Notes: generated by a model not told the origin, from the sequence alone. Positions 4,665-22,493 are shown, counted from the first letter of the stretch. The stretch is DNA of 24,000 bases from Candidatus Heimdallarchaeota archaeon (GCA_019056785.1 DXJV01000068.1:117954-141953), one strand, 5' to 3'. Program-made: numbers and translations.

Positions 4665-5897
4665 TTAATCCTTTAATGCCTCTCGTAGCAGCTTCACTAA
4701 TGAGGCGTCCTTTTTCATTAGCTTCGTGCCAAGTTTAATTTGAGCCCATTTGCCTGTGACTGCTTTTGTGAGATCTTCACCCGAAAATGCTTCGACAATA
4801 TGTTCCATTTGTTCATCGGTTATTACATCTAAGATTTTACGTGCTTTAGAGCCCAGACTGAACGATTTACCGTAGGCATTGTTCCATTGTTTTTCATAAT
4901 GCTTTCGCAGAAACTTTTCGGTGAAGTTTTCTTCTTCAAAGGCTTTTACAAGGGTTTTGCTTACCATCTCGCCTGCTTCCATTCCATAAGCAATGCCTCC
5001 ACCAGTTAAAGGATTGACTTGTCTTGCTGCATCACCAACAAGGAGCACTCTATCTGTTGCCAATCGTTTTAATGACCCCCCTACTGGAATGGCGCCTATC
5101 CGCTCTTCAATTATTTTTGCATGTTTGAATCGCCGCTTTCCCTCTGGGTGTTTGTAAATAAAGTCATCAAGGTACTCTTTGACACTCTTTTTCCCAAATC
5201 CCACACCAACACCTATGCCAACATTTGCAGAATGTTCTCCTTTTGGAAAGACCCAGAGATACCCTCGGGGAGCAACCTCTGTGCCCATATATAGGTCAAA
5301 CATTGTTGGCTCATCAATTTCTACACCAACCATTTCATAGCCAACAGACGTGTCGAGGTCCTTCGGGTCAATCGGCCCCGCAAGACCAGCATCACGAGCA
5401 ACGGTACTATAAATACCGTCCGCCCCAACAACCACTGGCGCTTTTTCAAGTCCTTCTTTTCCTTTTCGTTCGACTTGAAGTGTCACGCCTTCGGAAGGAT
5501 CAATTTTAATGCTCTTTACTCGAGTATTAATTTGGATATCTGCGCCTTCTTGAACAGCGCCGATTAACAATTCTTTGTCAAAAACACGCCGGTCAACAAT
5601 ATACCCTTCTCCTGCACCAAGACGGTATTCAATAGTGTTCAGTGACGGGCTAAATACTCGGAAGCCATCTATTTCGGTCCGAAAAACATATTTTGGTATG
5701 TCGAGTTTTAAAATGTCCTCGATGGTGTCTTTTCCCATTGCTTCGCCACATTGGACAGGAATCCCAACATGGCTTTTTGCTTCAAGGATTTTTACTTTGA
5801 ATCCTTCACGGGCAAGAAACCTAGCGGTAGTGGATCCAGCAGGACCACTTCCAACTACAATAACATCATATTTTTGACTTGGTGTTTGTTCATTCAT
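4665..5897 (-). CDS. Geranylgeranyl reductase family flavoprotein (digeranylgeranylglycerophospholipid reductase-like)
   Basis: FAD-binding motif YDVIVVGSGPAGSTTARFLAREG and the family motif LVGDAARQVNPLTGGGI. The longest ORF begins at TTG 5933. I prefer ATG 5897 (MNEQTPSQKYDVIVVG...) because the GxGxxG motif then sits at the usual distance from the N-terminus. Confidence 0.85.
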   Translation of the reverse strand: MNEQTPSQKYDVIVVGSGPAGSTTARFLAREGFKVKILEAKSHVGIPVQCGEAMGKDTIEDILKLDIPKYVFRTEIDGFRVFSPSLNTIEYRLGAGEGYIVDRRVFDKELLIGAVQEGADIQINTRVKSIKIDPSEGVTLQVERKGKEGLEKAPVVVGADGIYSTVARDAGLAGPIDPKDLDTSVGYEMVGVEIDEPTMFDLYMGTEVAPRGYLWVFPKGEHSANVGIGVGVGFGKKSVKEYLDDFIYKHPEGKRRFKHAKIIEERIGAIPVGGSLKRLATDRVLLVGDAARQVNPLTGGGIAYGMEAGEMVSKTLVKAFEEENFTEKFLRKHYEKQWNNAYGKSFSLGSKARKILDVITDEQMEHIVEAFSGEDLTKAVTGKWAQIKLGTKLMKKDASLVKLLREALKD

Positions 5898-5980
5898 TCT
5901 TCCTGACATCCAATACTCATCAAATACTCGCAATTTTTTAAAACCTTTTTACACTTCTTTACCACAAGGAGAAGGTAAAA

Positions 5981-7429
5981 TTACTCAAGTATTTTGTTCA
6001 GTGACAACGCCGGATAGTCCAAAGCGGCAACTAATTCTTGCATACTGTCTTTCGCCAATTCAACCCTCGAGTAACTTTTCAGTAGTTGGTTCACTTTATC
6101 TGTCGCTCGTTGGGCAATGGTTTTCCTTCCGAGAGCTATCCATTCATCATTTGTTCCTCTGTCGATTAGCTTGCTGGGGAGATAGTGGTCCTTTCTAAAC
6201 CACTTTAGGGTATGATCATGGGCGAGTAAGTGAGTGGTCTGCTCATCAAATTCTGCCAATAAATGTTTTGCAATGGGTTCATCCCGTTGTTGTATTCCTT
6301 CGACAAAACGATAGATCATCCCGCAAAGCTCGTTATCTATGACCACTTTTTGGATGCTCTGAGTTGTCTCAAAATTCAACATTCCCGCACCTGAAATCAT
6401 GTTCACTCCCTTTATTCCTGCAAGAAGGGCGCCCATACCAGTTTCAAAGCCGGCTTGCATGTCTAAGATTTTTGTGTCTGACATGCCAAGGTAGGCGTGG
6501 GTTGGTATATTAAGGAATTTGCCAATTTCGACATAGCCAAGGTCCAGTATCATCGTATCAATCGACCCCATAGGTGTAGTACCTTTTCGCATATCAAATG
6601 CGGCTGGTGAGCCACCCCAAATGAGCGGCGCACTTGGAGAAACGAGCTGAGTGATAACTAACCCTGCCAAGGTTTCAGCAGTATGTTGAACGATGGCGCC
6701 GAGAATAGTCACAGGCGCATTTGCCCCTGTCATCGGCATCGAAACAAATTCTGAAGGAATGCCTGCTTTTGCAGCATCAATTATACTCTGGCAAGTTAAG
6801 TCACTCCATTTTAAAGGGGGAGATGGGCATGCATCAAAAATGGCGAGAGGCTTTTGCTTTAGTTCTTTTTCACTTCCACGGATTGCGACTAGCATTTTCT
6901 TCATCGCGGCAAAATTTGTCTTAAGAAAAGTGCCGGTGACAATTGGCTTGCTGGAAAATATGAGGCTTAAGAATAATCGATATTTATCAGAGAGTTCTTT
7001 GGGGACATCGGAACAAATAATGGCCGTACTCTGGGCCTTAATATACTCGAGTTGCTCGACTACTTTAGTAAACTCAATATAATCTCGTGTAACTGCCGAT
7101 CGAATTTCGCCTGTTTGATAATCAAGAACAGTTAGTGCCGCTGAACCGGGGTCAAAACAGATGTTTTCTTTTGTCAAGTCACAGACTTTTTTCCCCTCAC
7201 GGTCAAAAAGTGGAATAATTGATGGGGCTGTGGAAAGTGCCTTCTCTATAAGGTCAGGAGGAAATTTAACCCGATGCTTTTCAATATCAATTTCTGCATC
7301 ATTCTCTTTTAAAAGTTCGAGTGCTTCTTGGTTCTCAATAAACGCGCCGATTTCTGCTAAAATCTCTTTTGCTTCACTAATAACCTTCTTCTTTAACTCC
7401 TCAGTTAGAACCTGTATCGCCGGCCTCAA
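5981..7429 (-). CDS. MttB-superfamily (COG5598) methyltransferase, non-pyrrolysine type (quaternary amine/methylamine:corrinoid methyltransferase candidate)
   Basis: 482-aa uninterrupted ORF with no in-frame TAG. The N-terminus LTEELKKKVISEAKEILAEIGAFIENQEALELLKENDAEID is typical of the family, as is the length. TTG start preceded by AGGTGG. It lies in an operon with a corrinoid protein. Confidence 0.8.
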   Translation of the reverse strand: MRPAIQVLTEELKKKVISEAKEILAEIGAFIENQEALELLKENDAEIDIEKHRVKFPPDLIEKALSTAPSIIPLFDREGKKVCDLTKENICFDPGSAALTVLDYQTGEIRSAVTRDYIEFTKVVEQLEYIKAQSTAIICSDVPKELSDKYRLFLSLIFSSKPIVTGTFLKTNFAAMKKMLVAIRGSEKELKQKPLAIFDACPSPPLKWSDLTCQSIIDAAKAGIPSEFVSMPMTGANAPVTILGAIVQHTAETLAGLVITQLVSPSAPLIWGGSPAAFDMRKGTTPMGSIDTMILDLGYVEIGKFLNIPTHAYLGMSDTKILDMQAGFETGMGALLAGIKGVNMISGAGMLNFETTQSIQKVVIDNELCGMIYRFVEGIQQRDEPIAKHLLAEFDEQTTHLLAHDHTLKWFRKDHYLPSKLIDRGTNDEWIALGRKTIAQRATDKVNQLLKSYSRVELAKDSMQELVAALDYPALSLNKILE

Positions 7430-7504
7430 AATCGTTCGACCACCTTTTGCTAATTACTGCTTTCTTTTGTTAAAATCTTTTTGTGTCCTTGCTTTGTACC
7501 TACC

Positions 7505-8155
7505 TTATTCACGACGAAAGCTACAATTAAGAAGGTCGCATGTGTGGCATTCTCGCAAGCCCAGAAGAGGGTCAATTTCAAGGCCAACATTAACAGCAAA
7601 AGAAATACTCTTTTGGGGGATCATTAAGAATGAGGATGTTAAGCGAACATCAATTTTTTCGGCTGGAAGCAAGTTAAAAATGGTTCTCTGCCCTTCTTCT
7701 AAGGGCCAACGGCAATAGCCAGGGCTGAAACGGTGCGTGAACTTTCGTCCGGGAAATTTTGCTCCAATTTCTTTACAGATAATTTGATAACTTTCTTCAG
7801 CAACGGCTTCCGCAGCACACGAAGCAATTGCATCAAGAATAACTGCTTGCGAAAGTTCGCCTTTATTTATGAGTTTATTACTCTCTTCTTCCAATGCTTT
7901 TCCAATAGTGCAAACACATAAAATTGTCCCTTCTGCTTTGGTAAATAGAAACCTTGGCGACAGCTGTTGGCTCGGGAAGAAATCATACAACGCTTTTGGT
8001 TTGATAAATGGTTTGGCAAACTCGAGTAGCTTTTCCACTTCTGTAAGCAAACTTTTTGGCGGTTCTTTCTGTTCCTCTCTTCCCTTTGCGCTGGTAAGAA
8101 GTTGCAGTATTTCCTGAATGGGCAATTGGAAAGGAATGGTTTCAATGATCTTCAC
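7505..8155 (-). CDS. Stand-alone MetH-type reactivation (AdoMet-binding, Met_synt_B12-like) domain protein
   Basis: HRFSPGYCRWPLEEGQRTIFNLLPAEKIDVRLTSSFLMIPQKSISF matches by eye the E. coli MetH activation-domain block [41 protein letters not shown] (RxxPGY AdoMet motif). The GTG start overlaps the upstream stop (GTGA). Confidence 0.7.
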   Translation of the reverse strand: MKIIETIPFQLPIQEILQLLTSAKGREEQKEPPKSLLTEVEKLLEFAKPFIKPKALYDFFPSQQLSPRFLFTKAEGTILCVCTIGKALEEESNKLINKGELSQAVILDAIASCAAEAVAEESYQIICKEIGAKFPGRKFTHRFSPGYCRWPLEEGQRTIFNLLPAEKIDVRLTSSFLMIPQKSISFAVNVGLEIDPLLGLRECHTCDLLNCSFRRE

Positions 8156-9036
8156 TTGTTCTGCTCCTTCAGCCTATCAGCAATATGCTTAATATAGGTG
8201 GGGTTGGTCCCACAACAACCACCAATAATTTGTCCCCCTAAAGAAACTATTTGAATGATGTCTGTAGCAAAGGCTTGGGGGCCAGTCGGGTAAATAGTCT
8301 CTGTGCCAACCAATTGCGGCCTGCCAGCATTCGGCTTAAAAACCAGAGGCTTATCTGTCAATTTGCGCATAATTGGCACTAAATCGATCATTTCATCACT
8401 TCCGATTGTACAATTTGCTCCAAGAACGTCTGCTCCAGCATTAGTCAAAGTACTAACGCATTCTTCTACAGTGTTACCCATAATGGTAAAGAATCCCCTT
8501 TTGGTCTTCTGAAAGGTTATAGACGTAAAAACCGGGACATCTGAAACCTTTTTTACCGCTTTTGTCGCTGCTTCTGCTTCCTTCAAATCGACCATTGTCT
8601 CAATAAAAAAGAAATCCACTCCACAATCTGCAAGAATCTCTGCTTGCTCTAAATAGTTCTCCTCAAAATCCTTTATAGTTGCGCTTCCGACAGGAGGGAG
8701 AAATTTGCCAGAAGGACCAATATCCCCGGCTATAAATCGTCCTTTGGGACAAGCTGCGCGGGCATTTCCTATTGCCTTGCGATTAAATTCTTCAACTTTA
8801 TCAGCAAAACCATGTGCAGCTAATTTCAATCGCGACGCTCCGAATGTGTTGCTCAGTACAGCATCTGCTCCTGCTAAAAAATACTCTTTATGAATTCTTT
8901 GAATGACTGTTGGTTTTGTGGCGTTCCAACTATCTGGGGGAGTGCCCGGGGGCAGCCCTTCGGCAATCAGTAGAGAACCCATGCCGCCGTCGAGGAGCAA
9001 TACCCGTTCCTCTAGTACCTCGAGGATTGATTGCAT
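8152..9036 (-). CDS. Homocysteine-binding S-methyltransferase domain protein (MetH N-terminal module-like, Zn-dependent)
   Basis: The N-terminus LLLDGGMGSLL and the Zn-ligand Cys motifs GANCTIG and IGGCCGTNPTYIKHI are characteristic of the PF02574-type Hcy-binding barrel. Confidence 0.85.
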   Translation of the reverse strand: MQSILEVLEERVLLLDGGMGSLLIAEGLPPGTPPDSWNATKPTVIQRIHKEYFLAGADAVLSNTFGASRLKLAAHGFADKVEEFNRKAIGNARAACPKGRFIAGDIGPSGKFLPPVGSATIKDFEENYLEQAEILADCGVDFFFIETMVDLKEAEAATKAVKKVSDVPVFTSITFQKTKRGFFTIMGNTVEECVSTLTNAGADVLGANCTIGSDEMIDLVPIMRKLTDKPLVFKPNAGRPQLVGTETIYPTGPQAFATDIIQIVSLGGQIIGGCCGTNPTYIKHIADRLKEQNK

Positions 9037-9052
9037 TTCTCACACCCACTCT

Positions 9053-9688
9053 TTAGTTTTTGATTAATTGTTTGGCTAAACGAACTGCTTCAACGGCATT
9101 TTCAGCCGTACCATCGGCACCAATTTCTTCCACCCACTTTTTTGTTACCGGCGCCCCTCCGACAAGAACTTTGAATCTATTGCGAAGTCCTTGCTCAATC
9201 AAGCGGTCTATAAGTTTCTTCTGCCCAACCATTGTCGTTGTGAGCAAAGAAGAAATGCAAATAAGGTCAGCATCAACCTCGAGAGCTTTTGAGATAAACG
9301 TCTCTATAGGGACGTCGTGTCCCAAGTCAAACACTTCGAACCCTTCTGCAGAAAGCATTGCAGCAACCAGTGTTTTACCAATATCATGAATGTCACCAAA
9401 AATTGTCCCGATAACGACTTTGCCAAGCGTTCGCTTTTTCATCTTCGCCCCCAGCTTTGGTTGGAGGATTGCCATTGCAGCCTTCATAGCCTCCGCACTC
9501 CGCATCAACTCTGGAAGGAAAAATTCTCCTTCTTCGAACAAGTCACCGGCTTTACGAATAGCTTCTGAGAACGCATCAACAATTGCAGGTATGTCCATTC
9601 CGGCGGCAATTGCCTCAGATGCGAGTTTTTGTGCAAGAGCCTTGTCACCTGTTAAGATTGCTTTTTGGTAGTCGTTTGAAAAAGGCAC
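9053..9688 (-). CDS. Corrinoid (cobalamin-binding) protein, MtbC/MttC/MtgC-like: B12 cap plus Rossmann domain
   Basis: B12-binding signature DxHxxG (GDIHDIGK), SxL (ISSLLTTT) and GG (VLVGGAPVT). The N-terminal helical cap is NDYQKAILTGDKALAQKLASEAIAAGMD. GTG start with an AGGA-type SD. Confidence 0.9.
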   Translation of the reverse strand: MPFSNDYQKAILTGDKALAQKLASEAIAAGMDIPAIVDAFSEAIRKAGDLFEEGEFFLPELMRSAEAMKAAMAILQPKLGAKMKKRTLGKVVIGTIFGDIHDIGKTLVAAMLSAEGFEVFDLGHDVPIETFISKALEVDADLICISSLLTTTMVGQKKLIDRLIEQGLRNRFKVLVGGAPVTKKWVEEIGADGTAENAVEAVRLAKQLIKN

Positions 9689-9787: not shown

Positions 9788-10549
9788 TTATTCTTTGCTC
9801 TTTTTTTCTGCTTGTTGAAGATATTCGAGAACCATCTGATCGACAGTATTAAAACCTAGCACCACAGCAAGCTCGTCGAGAACTTTATGTGCATGTTCCC
9901 GAATCTGCTCAGAATCATCTTTCTGAGAGATGTCATATAATAAAGGTATGAAACTAACGTCGTCAAGCTTGCCTATTGCTCGAGTGGCGATAAATCGAAG
10001 TTCTTCACTATATTCCGCGCCTGTACATTTACGAAGAAGCTCTTTCGTCTGTCCATCATCGTAGAGGCCAATAATCTCAAGGAGACAACTCTTTAGTTCC
10101 TCGTTCTTTTCAAGGGTAAAAAGTCGTAAGAGCTCGGGAATGATACTTGCATCACGAAGATACATTGTAGTACCCACAAGGACATCTCGAACAGTTTTAT
10201 CCTTTTCTTTGAGGAGGAGGTGGAGAATATCAAGGGCTTTAACCTTATTAGTGAAAAAGCGAAGACCGCCTGCAGCATTGCGCCGTGTCTCAGAATCATC
10301 ATCGTTCTTAAGAACTTCAAGGAGCACTTCTAATACCTCGTCCCCACCAAGTAAAGAGAGGGAGAGAACGATTGCTCGACGAACTTCGTGGATTTGTTCT
10401 GCTTGCAACAATTTAATCAAAGGTTTTGTTGCGCGTGGGTCCATGGATCGGCCAAGCATCTCAGCTGCATTGCGTCGAACAGCCGGGTCCTTGTCTTTTA
10501 ATAATTGGATGTTGCGTTCAATAGCATTTTTCCCAGTCAACAAAATCAC
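9788..10549 (-). CDS. HEAT-repeat (PBS-lyase-like) protein
   Basis: Repeated DPAVRRNAAEMLG / EVRRAIVLSLSLLG / SETRRNAAGGL / ELRFIATRAIGKL helical-repeat units. GTG start. Confidence 0.7.
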   Translation of the reverse strand: MILLTGKNAIERNIQLLKDKDPAVRRNAAEMLGRSMDPRATKPLIKLLQAEQIHEVRRAIVLSLSLLGGDEVLEVLLEVLKNDDDSETRRNAAGGLRFFTNKVKALDILHLLLKEKDKTVRDVLVGTTMYLRDASIIPELLRLFTLEKNEELKSCLLEIIGLYDDGQTKELLRKCTGAEYSEELRFIATRAIGKLDDVSFIPLLYDISQKDDSEQIREHAHKVLDELAVVLGFNTVDQMVLEYLQQAEKKSKE

Positions 10550-10685: not shown

Positions 10686-10793
10686 GGGCCGTTAGCTCAG
10701 CTTGGTAGAGCATCGGGCTCATAAGACTTGCACTTGTGAGTGCTCGCCGGAAACACCCGAGTGTCACTGGTTCAAATCCGGTACGGCCCACCA
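10686..10793 (+). tRNA. tRNA with CAU anticodon (Met or, more likely from overall similarity to tRNA-Ile, agmatidine-type Ile2); 31-nt intron at 37/38; genomically encoded CCA
   Basis: Hand-folded cloverleaf. Acceptor GGGCCGT/ACGGCCC; D arm GCTC-AGCTTGGTA-GAGC; anticodon arm TCGGG-CTCATAA-CCCGA once 10724-10754 is removed; variable loop GTGTC; T arm ACTGG-TTCAAAT-CCGGT; discriminator A plus CCA. The anticodon is at 10720-10722. Confidence 0.9.
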
Positions 10794-16402: not shown

Positions 16403-17107
16403 ATGGCTTCAAGAATCTTTGCTGGTTTGGTATTTCTAGCTTTGCTTTCTTATCTCTATGGTTCTCTTTGTTGGGCTATTATTATTAGCAAATGGAAACT
16501 TAGGAAAGACATTCGGGTGCTCGGCGATGGTAATCCTGGGGCGTATAATACCGGTAGAAATTTAGGTGGTAAATATTTTCTTCTTGTTATGCTTCTCGAT
16601 GCCTCTAAGGGATTCATTCCGGGGTTAATTGCTTCTTTCGTTAATTTTCAGGCTTATCAAAATTGGGCAGTAGGTTTAGCAGGGTCCTTCTCTGTTTTGG
16701 GGCATTGCTATCCCATCTTTTTCAAGTTTCGAGGTGGTAATGGTTTTTCGACTATTTTTGGTTTCATGATTCTTTACAATCCTTGGATGGTCCTTGAGTG
16801 GGGTATTTTTGTTTTCGTATTGACAGTTATTTTCAAGTACATCCGCCCCGTCCAACTCATCACTATGTTCTTTATTTCCTTTTTCGCCATCTTCATCGAT
16901 TGGCATTTTTATTGGAGGAACTTTTTCCCCTTGTTGACAGAGCCTATGATGCAAGTAACTCTCCCTGCTATGGTGCTAACGATTGCTTTATTGCAAGTGC
17001 CAAGATTTATCCCATACTTTGTTGGCATCTACACTGGAACAGAAGAAAAGATCTTTTTCTTTAAATTCCTGCGGAAGAATAAAACAACTTCTTCCGATAA
17101 TAATTAA
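16403..17107 (+). CDS. plsY: PlsY-family (COG0344) acyl-phosphate:glycerol-3-phosphate acyltransferase homolog, polytopic membrane protein
   Basis: All three PlsY motif blocks align by eye to B. subtilis PlsY. [20 protein letters not shown] aligns with [30 protein letters not shown] aligns with [28 protein letters not shown] aligns with LGHVFPIFAKFKGGKAVAT. Several hydrophobic helices are present. Confidence 0.8.
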   Translation: [234 protein letters not shown]

Positions 17108-20652: not shown

Positions 20653-21312
20653 TTAATCAAGATCAATTTTAATGTACTTTGTTAGTGCTTTTCGGATTTC
20701 CTGGCAGCGAGAGTCTTGAGAGGCAAATTGATTAGACACAAAACCCAGAACCATGCCCATTTTATCATCGGGAATGTTGCCTTTTAATTTTTCAGCCGCA
20801 TGTACGGTATATTTGTGCTGGCGGACAGTTAACTCATCTATGAGCTTCTGGGCTTCTTCTTTCTCTTCCTCGGATAGCCCCAGGAGAAAAGCGTCATCTA
20901 TCAAAGCAATCAAAGGATTCTCGCGAATGCCTTCTTTTTTTTCAATCTCATCAATAGTTGTAGCCAGTACAAAGGCCGGTGCCGTGCGTTCATAATAGGT
21001 TATTGACGTTCGTTTCTTTTTCTCTTCACGAGCAACACGCACAAACCCGTGCTCTACTAAAAGATCTAAATGATGATAACATTTCGGCGCAGAGACGCCT
21101 AATTTTCTCGCGATTTCAGGAACAGTCATTTCTTTCCGGATGGTGCCATCCTCGTTTTCGATTCCCTCACGCATCGTTCGTAAAATCTTGCGACGCATCG
21201 GGTCGACTAAAATTTTGATTTTCTCTGGACTACCAATAATCTTTACCCTACTACCTGCCCCTTTATTATTCCGCTTTTCTTCATCGCTTAATTCTTTAGG
21301 CTCTGGGGTCAT
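20653..21312 (-). CDS. ArsR-family winged-HTH transcriptional regulator with an extra C-terminal domain
   Basis: The HTH_20-like core is ILVDPMRRKILRTMREG...MTVPEIARKLGVSAPKCYHHLDLLVEHGFVRVAREEKKKRTSITYYERT. ATG start. It lies 73 nt upstream of TIM-barrel paralog 2 on the same strand. Confidence 0.75.
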   Translation of the reverse strand: MTPEPKELSDEEKRNNKGAGSRVKIIGSPEKIKILVDPMRRKILRTMREGIENEDGTIRKEMTVPEIARKLGVSAPKCYHHLDLLVEHGFVRVAREEKKKRTSITYYERTAPAFVLATTIDEIEKKEGIRENPLIALIDDAFLLGLSEEEKEEAQKLIDELTVRQHKYTVHAAEKLKGNIPDDKMGMVLGFVSNQFASQDSRCQEIRKALTKYIKIDLD

Positions 21313-21488: not shown

Positions 21489-22493
21489 TTAGCTATTTCT
21501 CTGCTGTAAATAGGAAATAATCGCTGTCAATTTTTCATCAGGAACGTTTAGGGGGATCACACAACCAGGGCCAATAATGATCGGCCGGCCATTAACAGAA
21601 GAAATCGTTTTCTCAAGCCGTTCCAAAACATTATCAATAGTTGCTTTGGGGAGAAATTCCTGTTCTTCAATGCCCCCGACAATAATGCCGGAAAAGAGTT
21701 TTTGAGCTTCAGCAATGGGTGGTGGCGTCAGCTGGTCATGCCAGTTTAATGCTTGGACAGGATAGTGCTTGGCAATTAGTTGAAACATAATATTATTGCC
21801 ATGAATGTGTGCGACATTAAAGGTTGCTTTGTTTTTAATTGCCTTTAAAATTTCGAGGTCAAAAGTCATGCCAAATTCTCGAAATTCTTCTTCCGTTAGA
21901 AAGTCAAAGGTTGCTTCCTGGGTTGCCAGGAAAATACCTGAGGCACCATTTTCGAGCGAAATCTTGGCAAACTCTTTCATGACTTTGGTAATAATTTTCA
22001 ACCCTTCCTTGAAGGTTCCGGGTTCTTCTCTTATGGCTTTTAAAACAAGTTCACGATTCTCCGTGAGTTTTGCTGCAACCATCAAGGGATTAAAAACAGT
22101 TTCAATGAAAGGTGTTTTTCTTTTCATCCCCTGATCAATGATGGTAAGTGCTTTGAGTTGCTCGCCAAACATCCCCTGATTTACGTCCAGCTCCTCGAGA
22201 GCAGCCCAATCCTCAATAGCAGCCACACGGTACTTTGTACAATAGGCTGAGCCGGTTAATTTTTGATCATCAAATGCAATCTCACACCCCCAATCAATAA
22301 CACAATAGCGACCATTGGGGCTCACTTTCATAAAGATCGAGTCAAACTTTTGAAGATACTCGAGTTGTTTCTGAGCCAGCCTTTCAGCTGAAAGGTCATC
22401 ACGAGGAAAATGACGCCAAAAAGCAAAGGGAATGGGTTCGACTTGCTCCCCTTTTAAAAGCGCCCGTAGGATTTCAATCTTTTCTTTCGACAC
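21489..22493 (-). CDS. Uroporphyrinogen-decarboxylase (URO-D) family protein, MtaA/MtbA/CmuA-like methylcobamide methyltransferase candidate
   Basis: 334 aa. The N-terminal pattern EILRALLKGEQVEPIPFAFWRHFP and the overall length fit URO-D-fold MT2-type proteins. GTG start with a GGCGTGAT SD-like motif. The call comes from recalled family features and is not verified. Confidence 0.6.
   Translation of the reverse strand: MSKEKIEILRALLKGEQVEPIPFAFWRHFPRDDLSAERLAQKQLEYLQKFDSIFMKVSPNGRYCVIDWGCEIAFDDQKLTGSAYCTKYRVAAIEDWAALEELDVNQGMFGEQLKALTIIDQGMKRKTPFIETVFNPLMVAAKLTENRELVLKAIREEPGTFKEGLKIITKVMKEFAKISLENGASGIFLATQEATFDFLTEEEFREFGMTFDLEILKAIKNKATFNVAHIHGNNIMFQLIAKHYPVQALNWHDQLTPPPIAEAQKLFSGIIVGGIEEQEFLPKATIDNVLERLEKTISSVNGRPIIIGPGCVIPLNVPDEKLTAIISYLQQRNS

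What the first reader, a model, noticed from the sequence alone, without database searches (positions are those of the whole stretch)
5981..9688. Disaggregated MetH-like operon with an MttB-family methyltransferase where the folate-binding module would be
Seen in sequence: four consecutive, tightly packed minus-strand genes with a 16-nt gap, a 4-nt GTGA overlap and a 75-nt gap. They encode (i) a corrinoid protein with DxHxxG/SxL/GG. (ii) A homocysteine-binding Zn methyltransferase barrel (GANC, GGCCGT). (iii) A free-standing MetH reactivation domain carrying the RxxPGY AdoMet motif (RFSPGYCRWP). (iv) A non-pyrrolysine MttB-superfamily enzyme. Three of the four MetH modules are therefore present as separate proteins, and the window has no pterin-binding (CH3-THF) module. 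Established knowledge: characterised non-Pyl MttB homologs (the MtgB, MtpB, MtcB, MtyB types) demethylate quaternary amines onto a corrinoid protein, and the methyl group is normally passed to THF by a pterin-binding MT2. Corrinoid reactivation in methylotrophic systems is usually by RamA-type ATP-dependent activases, not a MetH AdoMet domain. Inference: this operon may move a methyl group from a methylated amine directly to homocysteine, acting as a corrinoid-dependent, folate-independent methionine synthase or methyl-salvage route with MetH-style SAM-dependent repair. I am not aware of this arrangement having been characterised.
Basis: partly seen in the sequence, partly recalled or inferred. 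Interest (0 to 1): 0.72.

Follow-up and report, generated by a model that had tools for sequence, protein, structure and literature searches.

The report
MttB-fed split methionine synthase operon
An Asgard (Heimdall) archaeon carries a four-gene operon that probably makes methionine by passing a methyl group from an unknown methylated compound through a vitamin-B12 protein to homocysteine without folate; the same gene cluster was already noted, untested, in bacteria in 2022.

Summary
Four co-directional genes at 5981-9688 encode an MttC-like corrinoid protein, a MetH-type homocysteine/Zn barrel, a TM0269-type AdoMet reactivation protein and a non-pyrrolysine MttB homologue. The junctions are exactly as described, and the window has no pterin-binding gene.

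The window comes from Heimdallarchaeota MAGs. The same gene order recurs in divergent Heimdall genomes, once with unrelated flanking genes, and in FCB-group bacteria.

Among metagenomic loci built around the short reactivation protein, MttB-linked clusters carry either a stand-alone homocysteine methyltransferase (13 loci) or a pterin-binding MT2 (12), never both. One locus has a URO-D MT2 instead.

The idea is not new. Williams et al. 2022 (PMC9324843) described this cluster in bacteria with the same hypothesis. Mausz et al. 2025 showed experimentally a related MttB/split-MetH system that shares a corrinoid protein.

The methyl donor is unknown, because the MtgB glycine-betaine residues are not conserved. 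Whether these genomes lack a folate module, MetH or MetE elsewhere could not be tested.

What is new here: the archaeal members, and the finding that the short reactivation protein accompanies MttB systems generally.

The parts
9053..9688 (-). Corrinoid (B12-binding) protein, 211 aa, MttC/MtgC-like. It is the methyl carrier.
   Evidence: PF02607 + PF02310. TIGR02370 scores 225.7, above its cutoff of 215.3. Closest solved structures are M. barkeri MttC 7xcn_M (172 bits) and MtmC (154 bits); the MetH B12 domain scores 82-102 bits.
9377..9394 (-). D99-x-H101-x-x-G104 motif of the corrinoid protein (lower axial His ligand).
   Evidence: Read from the translation GDIHDIGK.
8152..9036 (-). Stand-alone MetH-type homocysteine-binding Zn methyltransferase barrel, 294 aa. 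Proposed MT2, transferring methyl from methyl-corrinoid to homocysteine.
   Evidence: PF02574, 220 bits. Best solved relative is the T. maritima MetH Hcy barrel 1q7m (197 bits); MmuM-type scores 62 and BHMT 56-61. D16-G17, E146, C209, C274 and C275 are invariant or nearly so in 32 homologues.
8410..8412 (-). Cys209 codon (first Zn ligand, in GANC).
   Evidence: Invariant column in alignment A1.
8212..8217 (-). Cys274-Cys275 codons (Zn ligands, in GGCCG).
   Evidence: Invariant columns in alignment A1.
7505..8155 (-). Short stand-alone MetH reactivation (AdoMet-binding) protein, 216 aa, TM0269-type.
   Evidence: PF02965, 42.5 bits against a cutoff of 25. Aligns end to end with TM0269 (1j6r). 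AlphaFold model has mean pLDDT 90.7. Foldseek best hit is 1j6r (E 2.4e-11, TM 0.68/0.74), and all 19 hits with E<=0.001 are MetH reactivation domains.
7715..7732 (-). R142-F-S-P-G-Y147 AdoMet-binding motif.
   Evidence: R142, S144, P145, G146 and Y147 are invariant in 44- and 55-sequence alignments; F143 is invariant among the seven cluster proteins of A2 and nearly invariant in the larger sets.
7523..7549 (-). C203-x2-C206-x4-C211 C-terminal cysteine motif. With C82 it is a possible metal or Fe-S site.
   Evidence: Invariant in A2 and A4. Present in 19/20 HcyMT-type, 17/17 pterin-type and 10/21 MetH-type family members. The model's tail has pLDDT of about 50. The function is inferred only.
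5981..7429 (-). Non-pyrrolysine MttB-superfamily methyltransferase, 482 aa. Proposed MT1, transferring methyl from an unknown donor to Co(I)-corrinoid.
   Evidence: PF06253, 271 bits. TIGR02369 scores 370, below its cutoff of 525. M. barkeri Pyl-MttB 7xcl scores 206 bits and MtgB 170 bits. It belongs to its own clade, linked to HcyMT genes.
6482..6484 (-). ATG codon for Met316 at the position of pyrrolysine (UAG) in MttB.
   Evidence: Alignment to 7xcl, the sequence itself, and clade-wide Met or Leu at this position.

Best explanation
The four genes form one operon encoding a corrinoid-dependent methyl-transfer chain that ends in methionine.

1. The MttB-clade enzyme (MT1) removes a methyl group from a still unknown small methylated compound, most likely a quaternary or otherwise activated amine. 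It transfers the methyl to the Co(I) form of the MttC-like corrinoid protein.
2. The MetH-type Zn barrel (MT2) transfers that methyl from methyl-Co(III) to homocysteine, giving methionine and regenerating Co(I).
3. When the cofactor is oxidised to Co(II), the TM0269-type protein restores it by reductive methylation with AdoMet. The electrons come from a flavodoxin or ferredoxin, possibly through the protein's conserved four-cysteine site.

The operon is a chimera. MT1 and the carrier descend from methylamine methyltransferase systems. MT2 and the repair protein descend from a Thermotoga-type short MetH.

Shown here: the domain identities, folds and motifs; the conserved linkage; and the modular MT2 slot. 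Inferred: every catalytic step, the donor, the direction of flow and the electron source.
For: **Domain identities:**

**Operon structure:** a 16-nt gap, a 4-nt overlap and a 75-nt gap.

**Conservation of the order CoP-HcyMT-Act-MttB:**
- Heimdall genomes whose HcyMT is 54-64% identical (L007, L008, L038, L093, L094).
- L091, where the flanking genes are unrelated.
- Bacteria L096 and L104.
- 26 contig lengths are shared between the HcyMT and MttB hit lists, a proxy for co-location.

**Modular MT2 slot, among loci with a short Act and an MttB within 8 kb:**
- 13 have a stand-alone HcyMT.
- 12 have a stand-alone PF00809 pterin MT2.
- None has both.
- One (L146) has a URO-D MT2.

**MttB clade:** MttBs linked to HcyMT form their own clade.

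**HcyMT type:** it retains the Zn ligands and the DG/E homocysteine-site residues. It is closest to corrinoid-dependent MetH barrels.

**Precedents:**
- TM0269 is required for reactivation of T. maritima MetH (Huang et al. 2007, cited in PMC7857596).
- An MttB-family enzyme and a homocysteine module share one corrinoid protein in R. pomeroyi (PMC12478193).
- Williams et al. 2022 independently proposed the same function.
Against: - No biochemical or genetic evidence exists for this cluster in any organism.
- The donor is unknown. The MtgB glycine-betaine residues Y97, R312, H348 and F356 align to Ser, His, a gap and Glu, and there is no pyrrolysine for trimethylamine.
- MttB is not always adjacent to the triad. 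It lies 4-7 kb away in L009 and L092, and is absent within 7 kb in the Zixibacteria-like L090.
- Spirochaete members of the MttB clade (about 60% identical) have none of the three partners nearby.
- A pterin- or MtrH-type module encoded elsewhere could also serve this corrinoid protein, as in R. pomeroyi.
- The loci counted are not phylogenetically independent.
Confidence: 0.58

Rival explanations
1. This is a split MetH with a shared corrinoid hub, like MtgBCDE. The corrinoid protein, HcyMT and Act would form a disaggregated MetH whose methyl-folate (or methyl-H4MPT) module is encoded elsewhere. The MttB homologue would merely share the corrinoid protein to feed methyl groups into C1 metabolism, and methionine would normally be made from methyl-folate.
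For: - Experimental precedent in R. pomeroyi and P. inhibens, where the genes are scattered and the pterin module MtgD is essential for methionine synthesis.
- The CoP-HcyMT-Act triad occurs without an adjacent MttB in L090, and with MttB displaced in L009 and L092.
- Other Asgard lineages pair MttB-like and corrinoid genes with MtrH.
- The bacteria in Williams et al. also carry full-length MetH.
Against: - No PF00809 gene lies within +-8-10 kb in any of the 13 HcyMT-type loci, or anywhere in the 24-kb window.
- HcyMT and pterin MT2 are mutually exclusive in sister clusters.
- The HcyMT-linked MttBs form a dedicated clade.
- The four genes stay contiguous when the flanking genes change and across domains of life.
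Confidence: 0.25
2. The MttB homologue uses a donor that is not an amine, such as a methylated thiol, a methoxy compound or a methylated cofactor. It would act as a functional replacement for the folate-binding barrel rather than as a quaternary-amine demethylase.
For: - The glycine-betaine site is not conserved, and there is no pyrrolysine.
- The clade is separate from all characterised members (Williams et al., say 'unknown methyl donor').
- Conservation is very high, about 60% identity between archaea and bacteria, which suggests a common, universal substrate.
Against: - Every characterised PF06253 member acts on methylated amines (established knowledge).
- The clade is sister to trimethylamine-specific MttB.
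Confidence: 0.12
3. The HcyMT works independently of the corrinoid protein. It would be an AdoMet- or S-methylmethionine-dependent homocysteine methyltransferase (YitJ/MmuM-like) that merely sits beside an MttB/corrinoid catabolic system.
For: The best NCBIfam match is the N-terminal half of the YitJ-type bifunctional enzyme (261 bits), whose methyl donor is not corrinoid-bound.
Against: - It is much closer to MetH barrels (197 bits) than to MmuM-type HMT (62 bits).
- It is always flanked by the corrinoid protein and a MetH-type reactivation protein, with a translationally coupled overlap.
- The same triad occurs without MttB.
Confidence: 0.05

Closest known systems
Four-gene cluster of Ca. 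Electryoneota and 'diverse bacteria' (Williams et al. 2022, Environ Microbiol, PMC9324843)
   Same: It has the same four components: a non-Pyl MttB/MtgB homologue, a homocysteine S-methyltransferase, a corrinoid protein and an AdoMet activation protein. The MttB homologue is placed the same way, apart from MtgB and MttB but nearer MttB. The functional hypothesis is the same. My bacterial loci L096 and L104 have the same C-H-A-M order.
   Different: That report covers bacteria only, as far as the main text shows (the supplement is not held). Here the hosts are Heimdall-group Asgard archaea. Neither case has been tested experimentally.
MtgBCDE of Ruegeria pomeroyi / split MetH of Phaeobacter inhibens (Mausz et al. 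2025, PMC12478193; Price et al. 2018)
   Same: An MttB-family MT1 and a stand-alone homocysteine module use one stand-alone corrinoid protein, linking demethylation of a methylated amine to methionine synthesis.
   Different: - That system needs the pterin module MtgD for methionine synthesis.
- It is reactivated by RamA + DUF1638, not by a PF02965 protein.
- Its genes are scattered, and its corrinoid protein is CmuA-like.
- Its hosts are aerobic Proteobacteria.
- Here no pterin gene is nearby, the corrinoid protein is MttC-like and the repair protein is TM0269-like.
Thermotoga maritima short MetH (TM0268) plus TM0269
   Same: The HcyMT and Act proteins are each most similar to these two T. 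maritima proteins among solved structures. The reactivation domain is a separate short protein.
   Different: TM0268 fuses the Hcy, pterin and B12 modules and uses methyl-folate. Here the modules are separate proteins, the pterin barrel is missing, an MttB barrel is present, and Act carries an extra CxxCxxxxC tail.
MtgB/MtgC/MtgA glycine betaine system of Desulfitobacterium hafniense and related MttB-superfamily systems (MtpB, MtcB, MtyB)
   Same: The logic of an MT1 of PF06253 plus a cognate corrinoid protein plus an MT2.
   Different: There the MT2 is a pterin-binding protein that delivers methyl to THF, and reactivation is by RamA. The substrate-binding residues of MtgB are not conserved here.
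Core methionine synthases MesA-D (Price et al. 2021, PMC7857596)
   Same: Folate-independent methionine synthesis that takes methyl groups from corrinoid proteins.
   Different: Those enzymes are MetE-like, not MetH-like (PF02574) barrels, and they are not associated with MttB (one search found no mention of MttB).

Membership tests
MttB superfamily (PF06253 / COG5598) | Full-length match to the family profile above the curated cutoff | tested here: met
   PF06253 scores 271.5 bits against a cutoff of 25, covering residues 3-467.
Trimethylamine methyltransferase MttB proper (TIGR02369) | In-frame UAG-encoded pyrrolysine in the active site, and a score above the equivalog cutoff | tested here: not met
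   Met316 (ATG) sits at the Pyl position. The score is 370.6, below the cutoff of 525. The PYLIS_3 Rfam hit reflects coding-sequence conservation and is also found in other non-Pyl homologues.
Glycine betaine methyltransferase MtgB | Substrate-binding residues Y97, R312, H348 and F356 (Picking et al. 2026, PMC13080624) | tested here: not met
   These positions align to Ser, His, a gap and Glu in this protein and throughout its clade.
Methyltransferase cognate corrinoid protein (TIGR02370) | B12-binding cap plus Rossmann domain with DxHxxG, and a score above the cutoff | tested here: met
   Scores 225.7 against a cutoff of 215.3. PF02607 + PF02310. D99xH101xxG104 is present in the sequence. The nearest structure is MttC.
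MetH-type homocysteine-binding domain (PF02574) | TIM-barrel profile match, three Zn-ligand cysteines, and the DG/E homocysteine-site residues | tested here: met
   220 bits. G17, C209, C274, C275 and E146 are invariant and D16 nearly invariant in 32 homologues. The nearest structure is the T. maritima MetH barrel.
MetH-type homocysteine-binding domain (PF02574) | Uses a methyl-corrinoid, rather than AdoMet, SMM or betaine, as methyl donor | not testable with these tools
   The evidence is only indirect: 197 bits to MetH against 62 to MmuM-type and 56-61 to BHMT, and obligate adjacency to a corrinoid protein.
MetH reactivation domain, short TM0269 type (PF02965) | Profile match, RxxxGY AdoMet motif, and the reactivation-domain fold | tested here: met
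   42.5 bits against a cutoff of 25. R142 and S144-P145-G146-Y147 of RFSPGY are invariant, F143 nearly so. Foldseek best hit is 1j6r (E 2.4e-11, TM 0.68/0.74), followed by 18 MetH reactivation domains.
MetH reactivation domain, short TM0269 type (PF02965) | AdoMet-dependent reductive methylation of Co(II) corrinoid | not testable with these tools
   Activity is known only for TM0269 and MetH (Huang et al. 2007, cited).
MtgBCDE-type shared-corrinoid system (Mausz et al. 2025) | Pterin-binding module (MtgD) serving the same corrinoid protein | tested here: not met
   There is no PF00809 gene in the window or within +-8 kb in 13 related loci. Genome-wide absence could not be tested.
MtgBCDE-type shared-corrinoid system (Mausz et al. 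2025) | RamA + DUF1638 reductive activation | tested here: not met
   Neither family appears among the Pfam hits of the genes flanking the cluster. A PF02965 protein is present instead.
Williams et al. 2022 four-gene cluster | A non-Pyl MttB homologue, a homocysteine S-methyltransferase, a corrinoid protein and an activation protein in one gene cluster | tested here: met

The most novel reading that the evidence does not exclude
In these Heimdall-group archaea this operon is the only methionine synthase. It would be a folate-independent, B12-dependent enzyme system whose methyl-donor barrel is a dedicated MttB clade acting on a substrate class not yet known for the superfamily. The cysteine-rich TM0269-like protein would be a metal- or Fe-S-containing, ATP-independent reductive activator that serves MttB-type methyltransferase systems in general, in place of RamA.
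Probability: 0.15. Interest if true: 0.72.

Novelty: new member of a known kind. Interest (0 to 1): 0.45.

Why it matters
If the chain works as inferred, it is a B12-dependent counterpart of betaine-homocysteine methyltransferase. It would make methionine, and hence AdoMet, directly from an environmental methyl compound and bypass folate C1 metabolism.

That would tie the methyl cycle of Heimdall-group Asgard archaea, the closest known archaeal relatives of eukaryotes, to cobalamin and to methylated osmolyte-type compounds in sediments. It would also add a fifth route to the known folate-independent methionine synthases.

The comparative result also matters beyond this locus. The methyl-acceptor slot of MttB systems appears to be interchangeable (homocysteine barrel, pterin barrel or URO-D). 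A short MetH-type AdoMet repair protein with a conserved cysteine motif accompanies many of these systems. That challenges the working assumption that such systems rely on RamA-type ATP-dependent activases.

Tried and rejected
- **Genome-collection scan with the HcyMT alignment.** It could not be used to count conservation across Asgard species or to look for pterin, MetE or MetH genes in the same genomes.
- **PYLIS_3 Rfam hit inside mttB.** I considered it a possible trace of Pyl decoding and rejected that. The ORF has ATG, not TAG, at that codon, and the same hit occurs in other non-Pyl homologues, including pterin-linked ones.
- **MtgB orthology, i.e. glycine betaine as the donor.** Rejected on the active-site residues.
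- **MmuM- or BHMT-type identity of the HcyMT.** Rejected on relative scores.
- **The 218-aa neighbour of the Spirochaete orphan MttBs.** Tested as a possible divergent Act; it is unrelated.
- **First structure job.** It was repeated with database hits only.
- **Papers not held.** The supplement of Williams et al. (the taxa in Table S4) and Huang et al. 2007 are not held.
- **Taxonomy of metagenomic loci by exact-sequence lookup.** It gave almost no names. A bacterial origin for L096 and L104 was inferred from their neighbours.
- **L150.** Overlapping ORFs on a 2.6-kb contig, left out of the counts.
- **Promoter scan.** Not used, because the tool models sigma-70 promoters and the host is an archaeon.

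Full report
**1. The observation**

The window holds four minus-strand ORFs at exactly the stated coordinates. Read from the sequence:
- The corrinoid gene ends in TAA, 16 nt before the ATG of the next gene.
- That gene's TGA stop overlaps the GTG start of the third gene as GTGA.
- The third gene ends 75 nt before the TTG start of the fourth, which is preceded by AGGTGG.

Pfam gives the following:

| Coordinates | Family | Score |
|---|---|---|
| 9053-9688 | PF02607 + PF02310 | 64.8 and 100.6 bits |
| 8152-9036 | PF02574 | 220 bits |
| 7505-8155 | PF02965 | 42.5 bits (cutoff 25), central part of the profile only |
| 5981-7429 | PF06253 | 271 bits |

The quoted motifs are all present in the translations: DxHxxG, GANC, GGCCGT and RFSPGY. 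Every real ORF of the window was scanned, and none is a pterin-binding or MtrH protein. A pterin HMM built from verified PF00809 neighbours found nothing in any six-frame ORF, even at E<=10.

**2. Source and context**

The flanking genes are archaeal: primase PriS and PriL, SepF, a digeranylgeranylglycerophospholipid reductase, and a 105-nt tRNA that ARAGORN did not detect, which probably contains an intron. A bacterial-type PlsY is also present. The identical activation protein is encoded on at least 23 contigs, including MAGs named Candidatus Heimdallarchaeota (GCA_054386155.1, GCA_003662935.1 and others), all with the same locus.

**3. What each protein is**

- **Corrinoid protein.** It passes the TIGR02370 cutoff for a methyltransferase cognate corrinoid protein. 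It is closest to M. barkeri MttC (172 bits) and MtmC, not to the MetH B12 domain (82-102 bits).
- **Homocysteine methyltransferase.** It is closest to the homocysteine barrel of T. maritima MetH (1q7m, 197 bits), then other MetH enzymes (117-125). The AdoMet/SMM-dependent HMT (62) and BHMT (56-61) score far lower. The three Zn cysteines, Gly17 and Glu146 are invariant and Asp16 is nearly invariant across 32 homologues.
- **Activation protein.** The 216-aa protein aligns end to end with TM0269, the stand-alone activation protein of T. maritima MetH. A confident AlphaFold model (pLDDT 90.7) matches 1j6r best (E 2.4e-11, TM 0.68/0.74), followed only by MetH reactivation domains. TM0269 is required to reactivate TM0268 (Huang et al. 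2007, as cited in PMC7857596). The family also has four conserved cysteines, C82 and C203-x2-C206-x4-C211. TM0269 appears too short to contain them. That tail is the only low-confidence part of the model.
- **MttB homologue.** It is closer to Pyl-containing M. barkeri MttB (206 bits) than to MtgB (170 bits). It has Met316 (ATG) where MttB has pyrrolysine. The residues that bind glycine betaine in MtgB (Y97, R312, H348, F356; PMC13080624) align to Ser, His, a gap and Glu.

The operon is therefore a chimera. The MT1 and carrier are of the methylamine-methyltransferase type. The MT2 and repair protein are of the Thermotoga-MetH type.

**4. Conservation**

Stand-alone HcyMT homologues at 49-75% identity are numerous in Heimdall, Thor and other Asgard MAGs. 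Their contexts show the following:
- L007 (64% identity, on a 2.26-Mb contig) and L008 (58%) keep the order HEAT, CoP, HcyMT, Act, MttB, GGR.
- L091 (54%) keeps the four genes contiguous among completely different neighbours.
- L009 and L092 keep the triad, with MttB 4-7 kb away. A flavodoxin, a roughly 505-aa B12-binding protein and an octopine-dehydrogenase-like gene lie in between.
- L090, which is Zixibacteria-like, has the triad only.

Twenty-six contig lengths are shared between the HcyMT and MttB hit lists, a proxy for co-location. The MttB clade is very conserved: 66-81% identity within Heimdall and about 60% to bacterial members. Two Spirochaete members are orphans with no partner within 7 kb.

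**5. The wider family of the short activation protein**

A profile of the activation protein finds about 1,800 proteins. I annotated 80 metagenomic loci found with it, plus the earlier loci. I used HMMs for HcyMT, Act and pterin, and phmmer searches with the window's CoP and MttB. The pterin HMM came from roughly 269-aa neighbours verified as PF00809.

Four architectures emerge:

| Type | Architecture | Loci |
|---|---|---|
| I | Act beside a fused Hcy-pterin-B12 short MetH of about 800 aa (the Thermotoga type) | about 20 bacterial loci |
| II | Act-MttB-pterin MT2-CoP(-MttB-CoP) | 12 |
| III | CoP-HcyMT-Act-MttB, as in the window | 13, including bacterial L096 and L104 (bacterial by RsmB-NusB and T9SS sorting-domain neighbours) |
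| IV | Act + MttB (+CoP) with neither MT2 | 13, mostly on short contigs; L146 has a URO-D (MtaA-type) MT2 in that slot |

No MttB-linked locus has both an HcyMT and a pterin MT2, and no type III locus has a pterin gene within +-8 kb.

In a neighbour-joining tree, the MttBs of type III, together with L101-103 and L146, form one clade with the motif THAY[LM]G[ML]SD, nearest to Pyl-MttB. Most type II MttBs fall in two other clades, one of them nearer MtgB; a single pterin-linked sequence (L115) is an outlier beside the type III clade. These loci are related to one another, so the counts are descriptive and not a statistical test.

**6. Mechanism**

The simplest reading is that the homocysteine barrel occupies the MT2 position that a pterin barrel or URO-D protein fills in sister systems. 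Methyl groups taken by the MttB-clade enzyme onto the corrinoid protein would then go to homocysteine, and the TM0269-like protein would repair oxidised cofactor with AdoMet.

Shown here: the identities, folds, motifs, linkage and modularity. Inferred: all chemistry, the donor, the electron source (the nearby flavodoxin in L092 and L009 and the cysteine motif are only hints), and whether this is the cell's only methionine synthase.

The main rival is a shared-hub split MetH whose folate or H4MPT module lies elsewhere, as in R. pomeroyi. I could not exclude it, because whole genomes cannot be searched with these tools.

**7. Prior knowledge**

- Williams et al. 2022 (PMC9324843) describe this same four-gene cluster in Ca. 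Electryoneota MAGs and 'diverse bacteria'. They place the MttB homologue in an uncharacterised clade nearer MttB than MtgB. [quoted passage not shown] Those MAGs also encode full-length MetH.
- Mausz et al. 2025 (PMC12478193) show genetically that an MttB-family enzyme and a split MetH share one corrinoid protein in Ruegeria. That system has a pterin module and RamA/DUF1638.
- Asgard papers report MttB-like, corrinoid and MtrH genes in other lineages, with THF or H4MPT as the predicted acceptor (PMC11291895).
- No paper in the library combines Heimdallarchaeota with methionine synthase or links PF02965 to MttB systems, other than Williams et al..

**8. Verdict**

It is a new (archaeal) member of a cluster type already described and hypothesised about, and it has not been characterised experimentally.

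The added value here is fourfold:
- The cluster's presence and deep conservation in Heimdall-group Asgard archaea.
- The MT2-slot exclusivity argument.
- The exclusion of MtgB-type substrate binding.
- The observation that short, cysteine-rich MetH-type reactivation proteins accompany many MttB systems.

Interest is moderate.

Noticed in passing
Loci L114, L117, L126, L132, L137, L147, L149, L156, L159, L166 (e.g. L114:9932-14000): Many metagenomic clusters have the order short Act (PF02965), MttB, pterin-binding MT2, corrinoid protein, second MttB, second corrinoid protein. A MetH-type AdoMet reactivation protein therefore seems to be a common partner of classic MttB-to-THF systems. I found no paper reporting this in the library.
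   Followed up: partly
window 7523-7549 (-) and the C82 codon at 7910-7912 (-): The activation-like family has four conserved cysteines, C82 and a C-terminal CxxCxxxxC. The motif is present in 19/20 HcyMT-type, 17/17 pterin-type and 10/21 MetH-type members, and apparently absent from TM0269. It may be a metal or Fe-S site; the AlphaFold tail has pLDDT of about 50.
   Followed up: partly
window 6385-6484 (-): An Rfam PYLIS_3 hit (39.4 bits against a gathering score of 38) starts exactly at the Met316 codon of the non-Pyl mttB homologue. The same hit occurs in other non-Pyl homologues, up to 56 bits in L114. It reflects coding-sequence conservation, not pyrrolysine decoding.
   Followed up: yes
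window 21489-22493 (-): A URO-D family protein whose best, sub-threshold matches are MtaA, MtbA and CmuA methylcobamide methyltransferases (81 bits). It lies 12 kb from the operon, next to an ArsR-type regulator (20653-21312). It could be a second MT2 for the same corrinoid protein. L146 has a URO-D gene inside an Act-CoP-MttB cluster.
   Followed up: partly
L092:9762-12615 and L009:5854-10607: Between the triad and MttB, these two loci carry a flavodoxin-like gene, a roughly 505-aa protein with an N-terminal B12-binding domain and a weak Met_asp_mut_E-like C-terminus, and an octopine-dehydrogenase-family gene. The flavodoxin would suit MetH-style reductive activation. The opine-dehydrogenase-like gene might relate to the substrate.
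   Followed up: partly
L173:7001-8470 and L174:7001-8467: Spirochaete members of the same MttB clade (about 60% identity) are orphans. They are flanked by a hotdog-fold (4HBT) protein and accompanied by a conserved 218-aa protein of unknown family that is not related to Act.
   Followed up: partly
window 10686-10790 (+): A 105-nt tRNA found by Rfam (55.6 bits) but missed by ARAGORN, presumably because of an archaeal intron. A similar tRNA occurs in L093.
   Followed up: no
window 16403-17107 (+) and 4665-5933 (-): A bacterial-type glycerol-3-phosphate acyltransferase PlsY lies in the same window as an archaeal digeranylgeranylglycerophospholipid reductase. This fits the mixed lipid gene sets reported for Asgard archaea.
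   Followed up: no
window 9788-10549 (-): A HEAT-repeat protein immediately upstream of the operon is conserved in the syntenic Heimdall loci L007 and L008 but absent from L091. It is probably not part of the system.
   Followed up: partly
L008 (ERZ27256827) / protein P0064: The HcyMT of this locus is labelled 'Candidatus Bathyarchaeia' by one source, and L009 is labelled Thorarchaeota. L008, though, is syntenic with the Heimdall loci over more than 10 kb, so the Bathyarchaeia label may be a binning or naming error.
   Followed up: no
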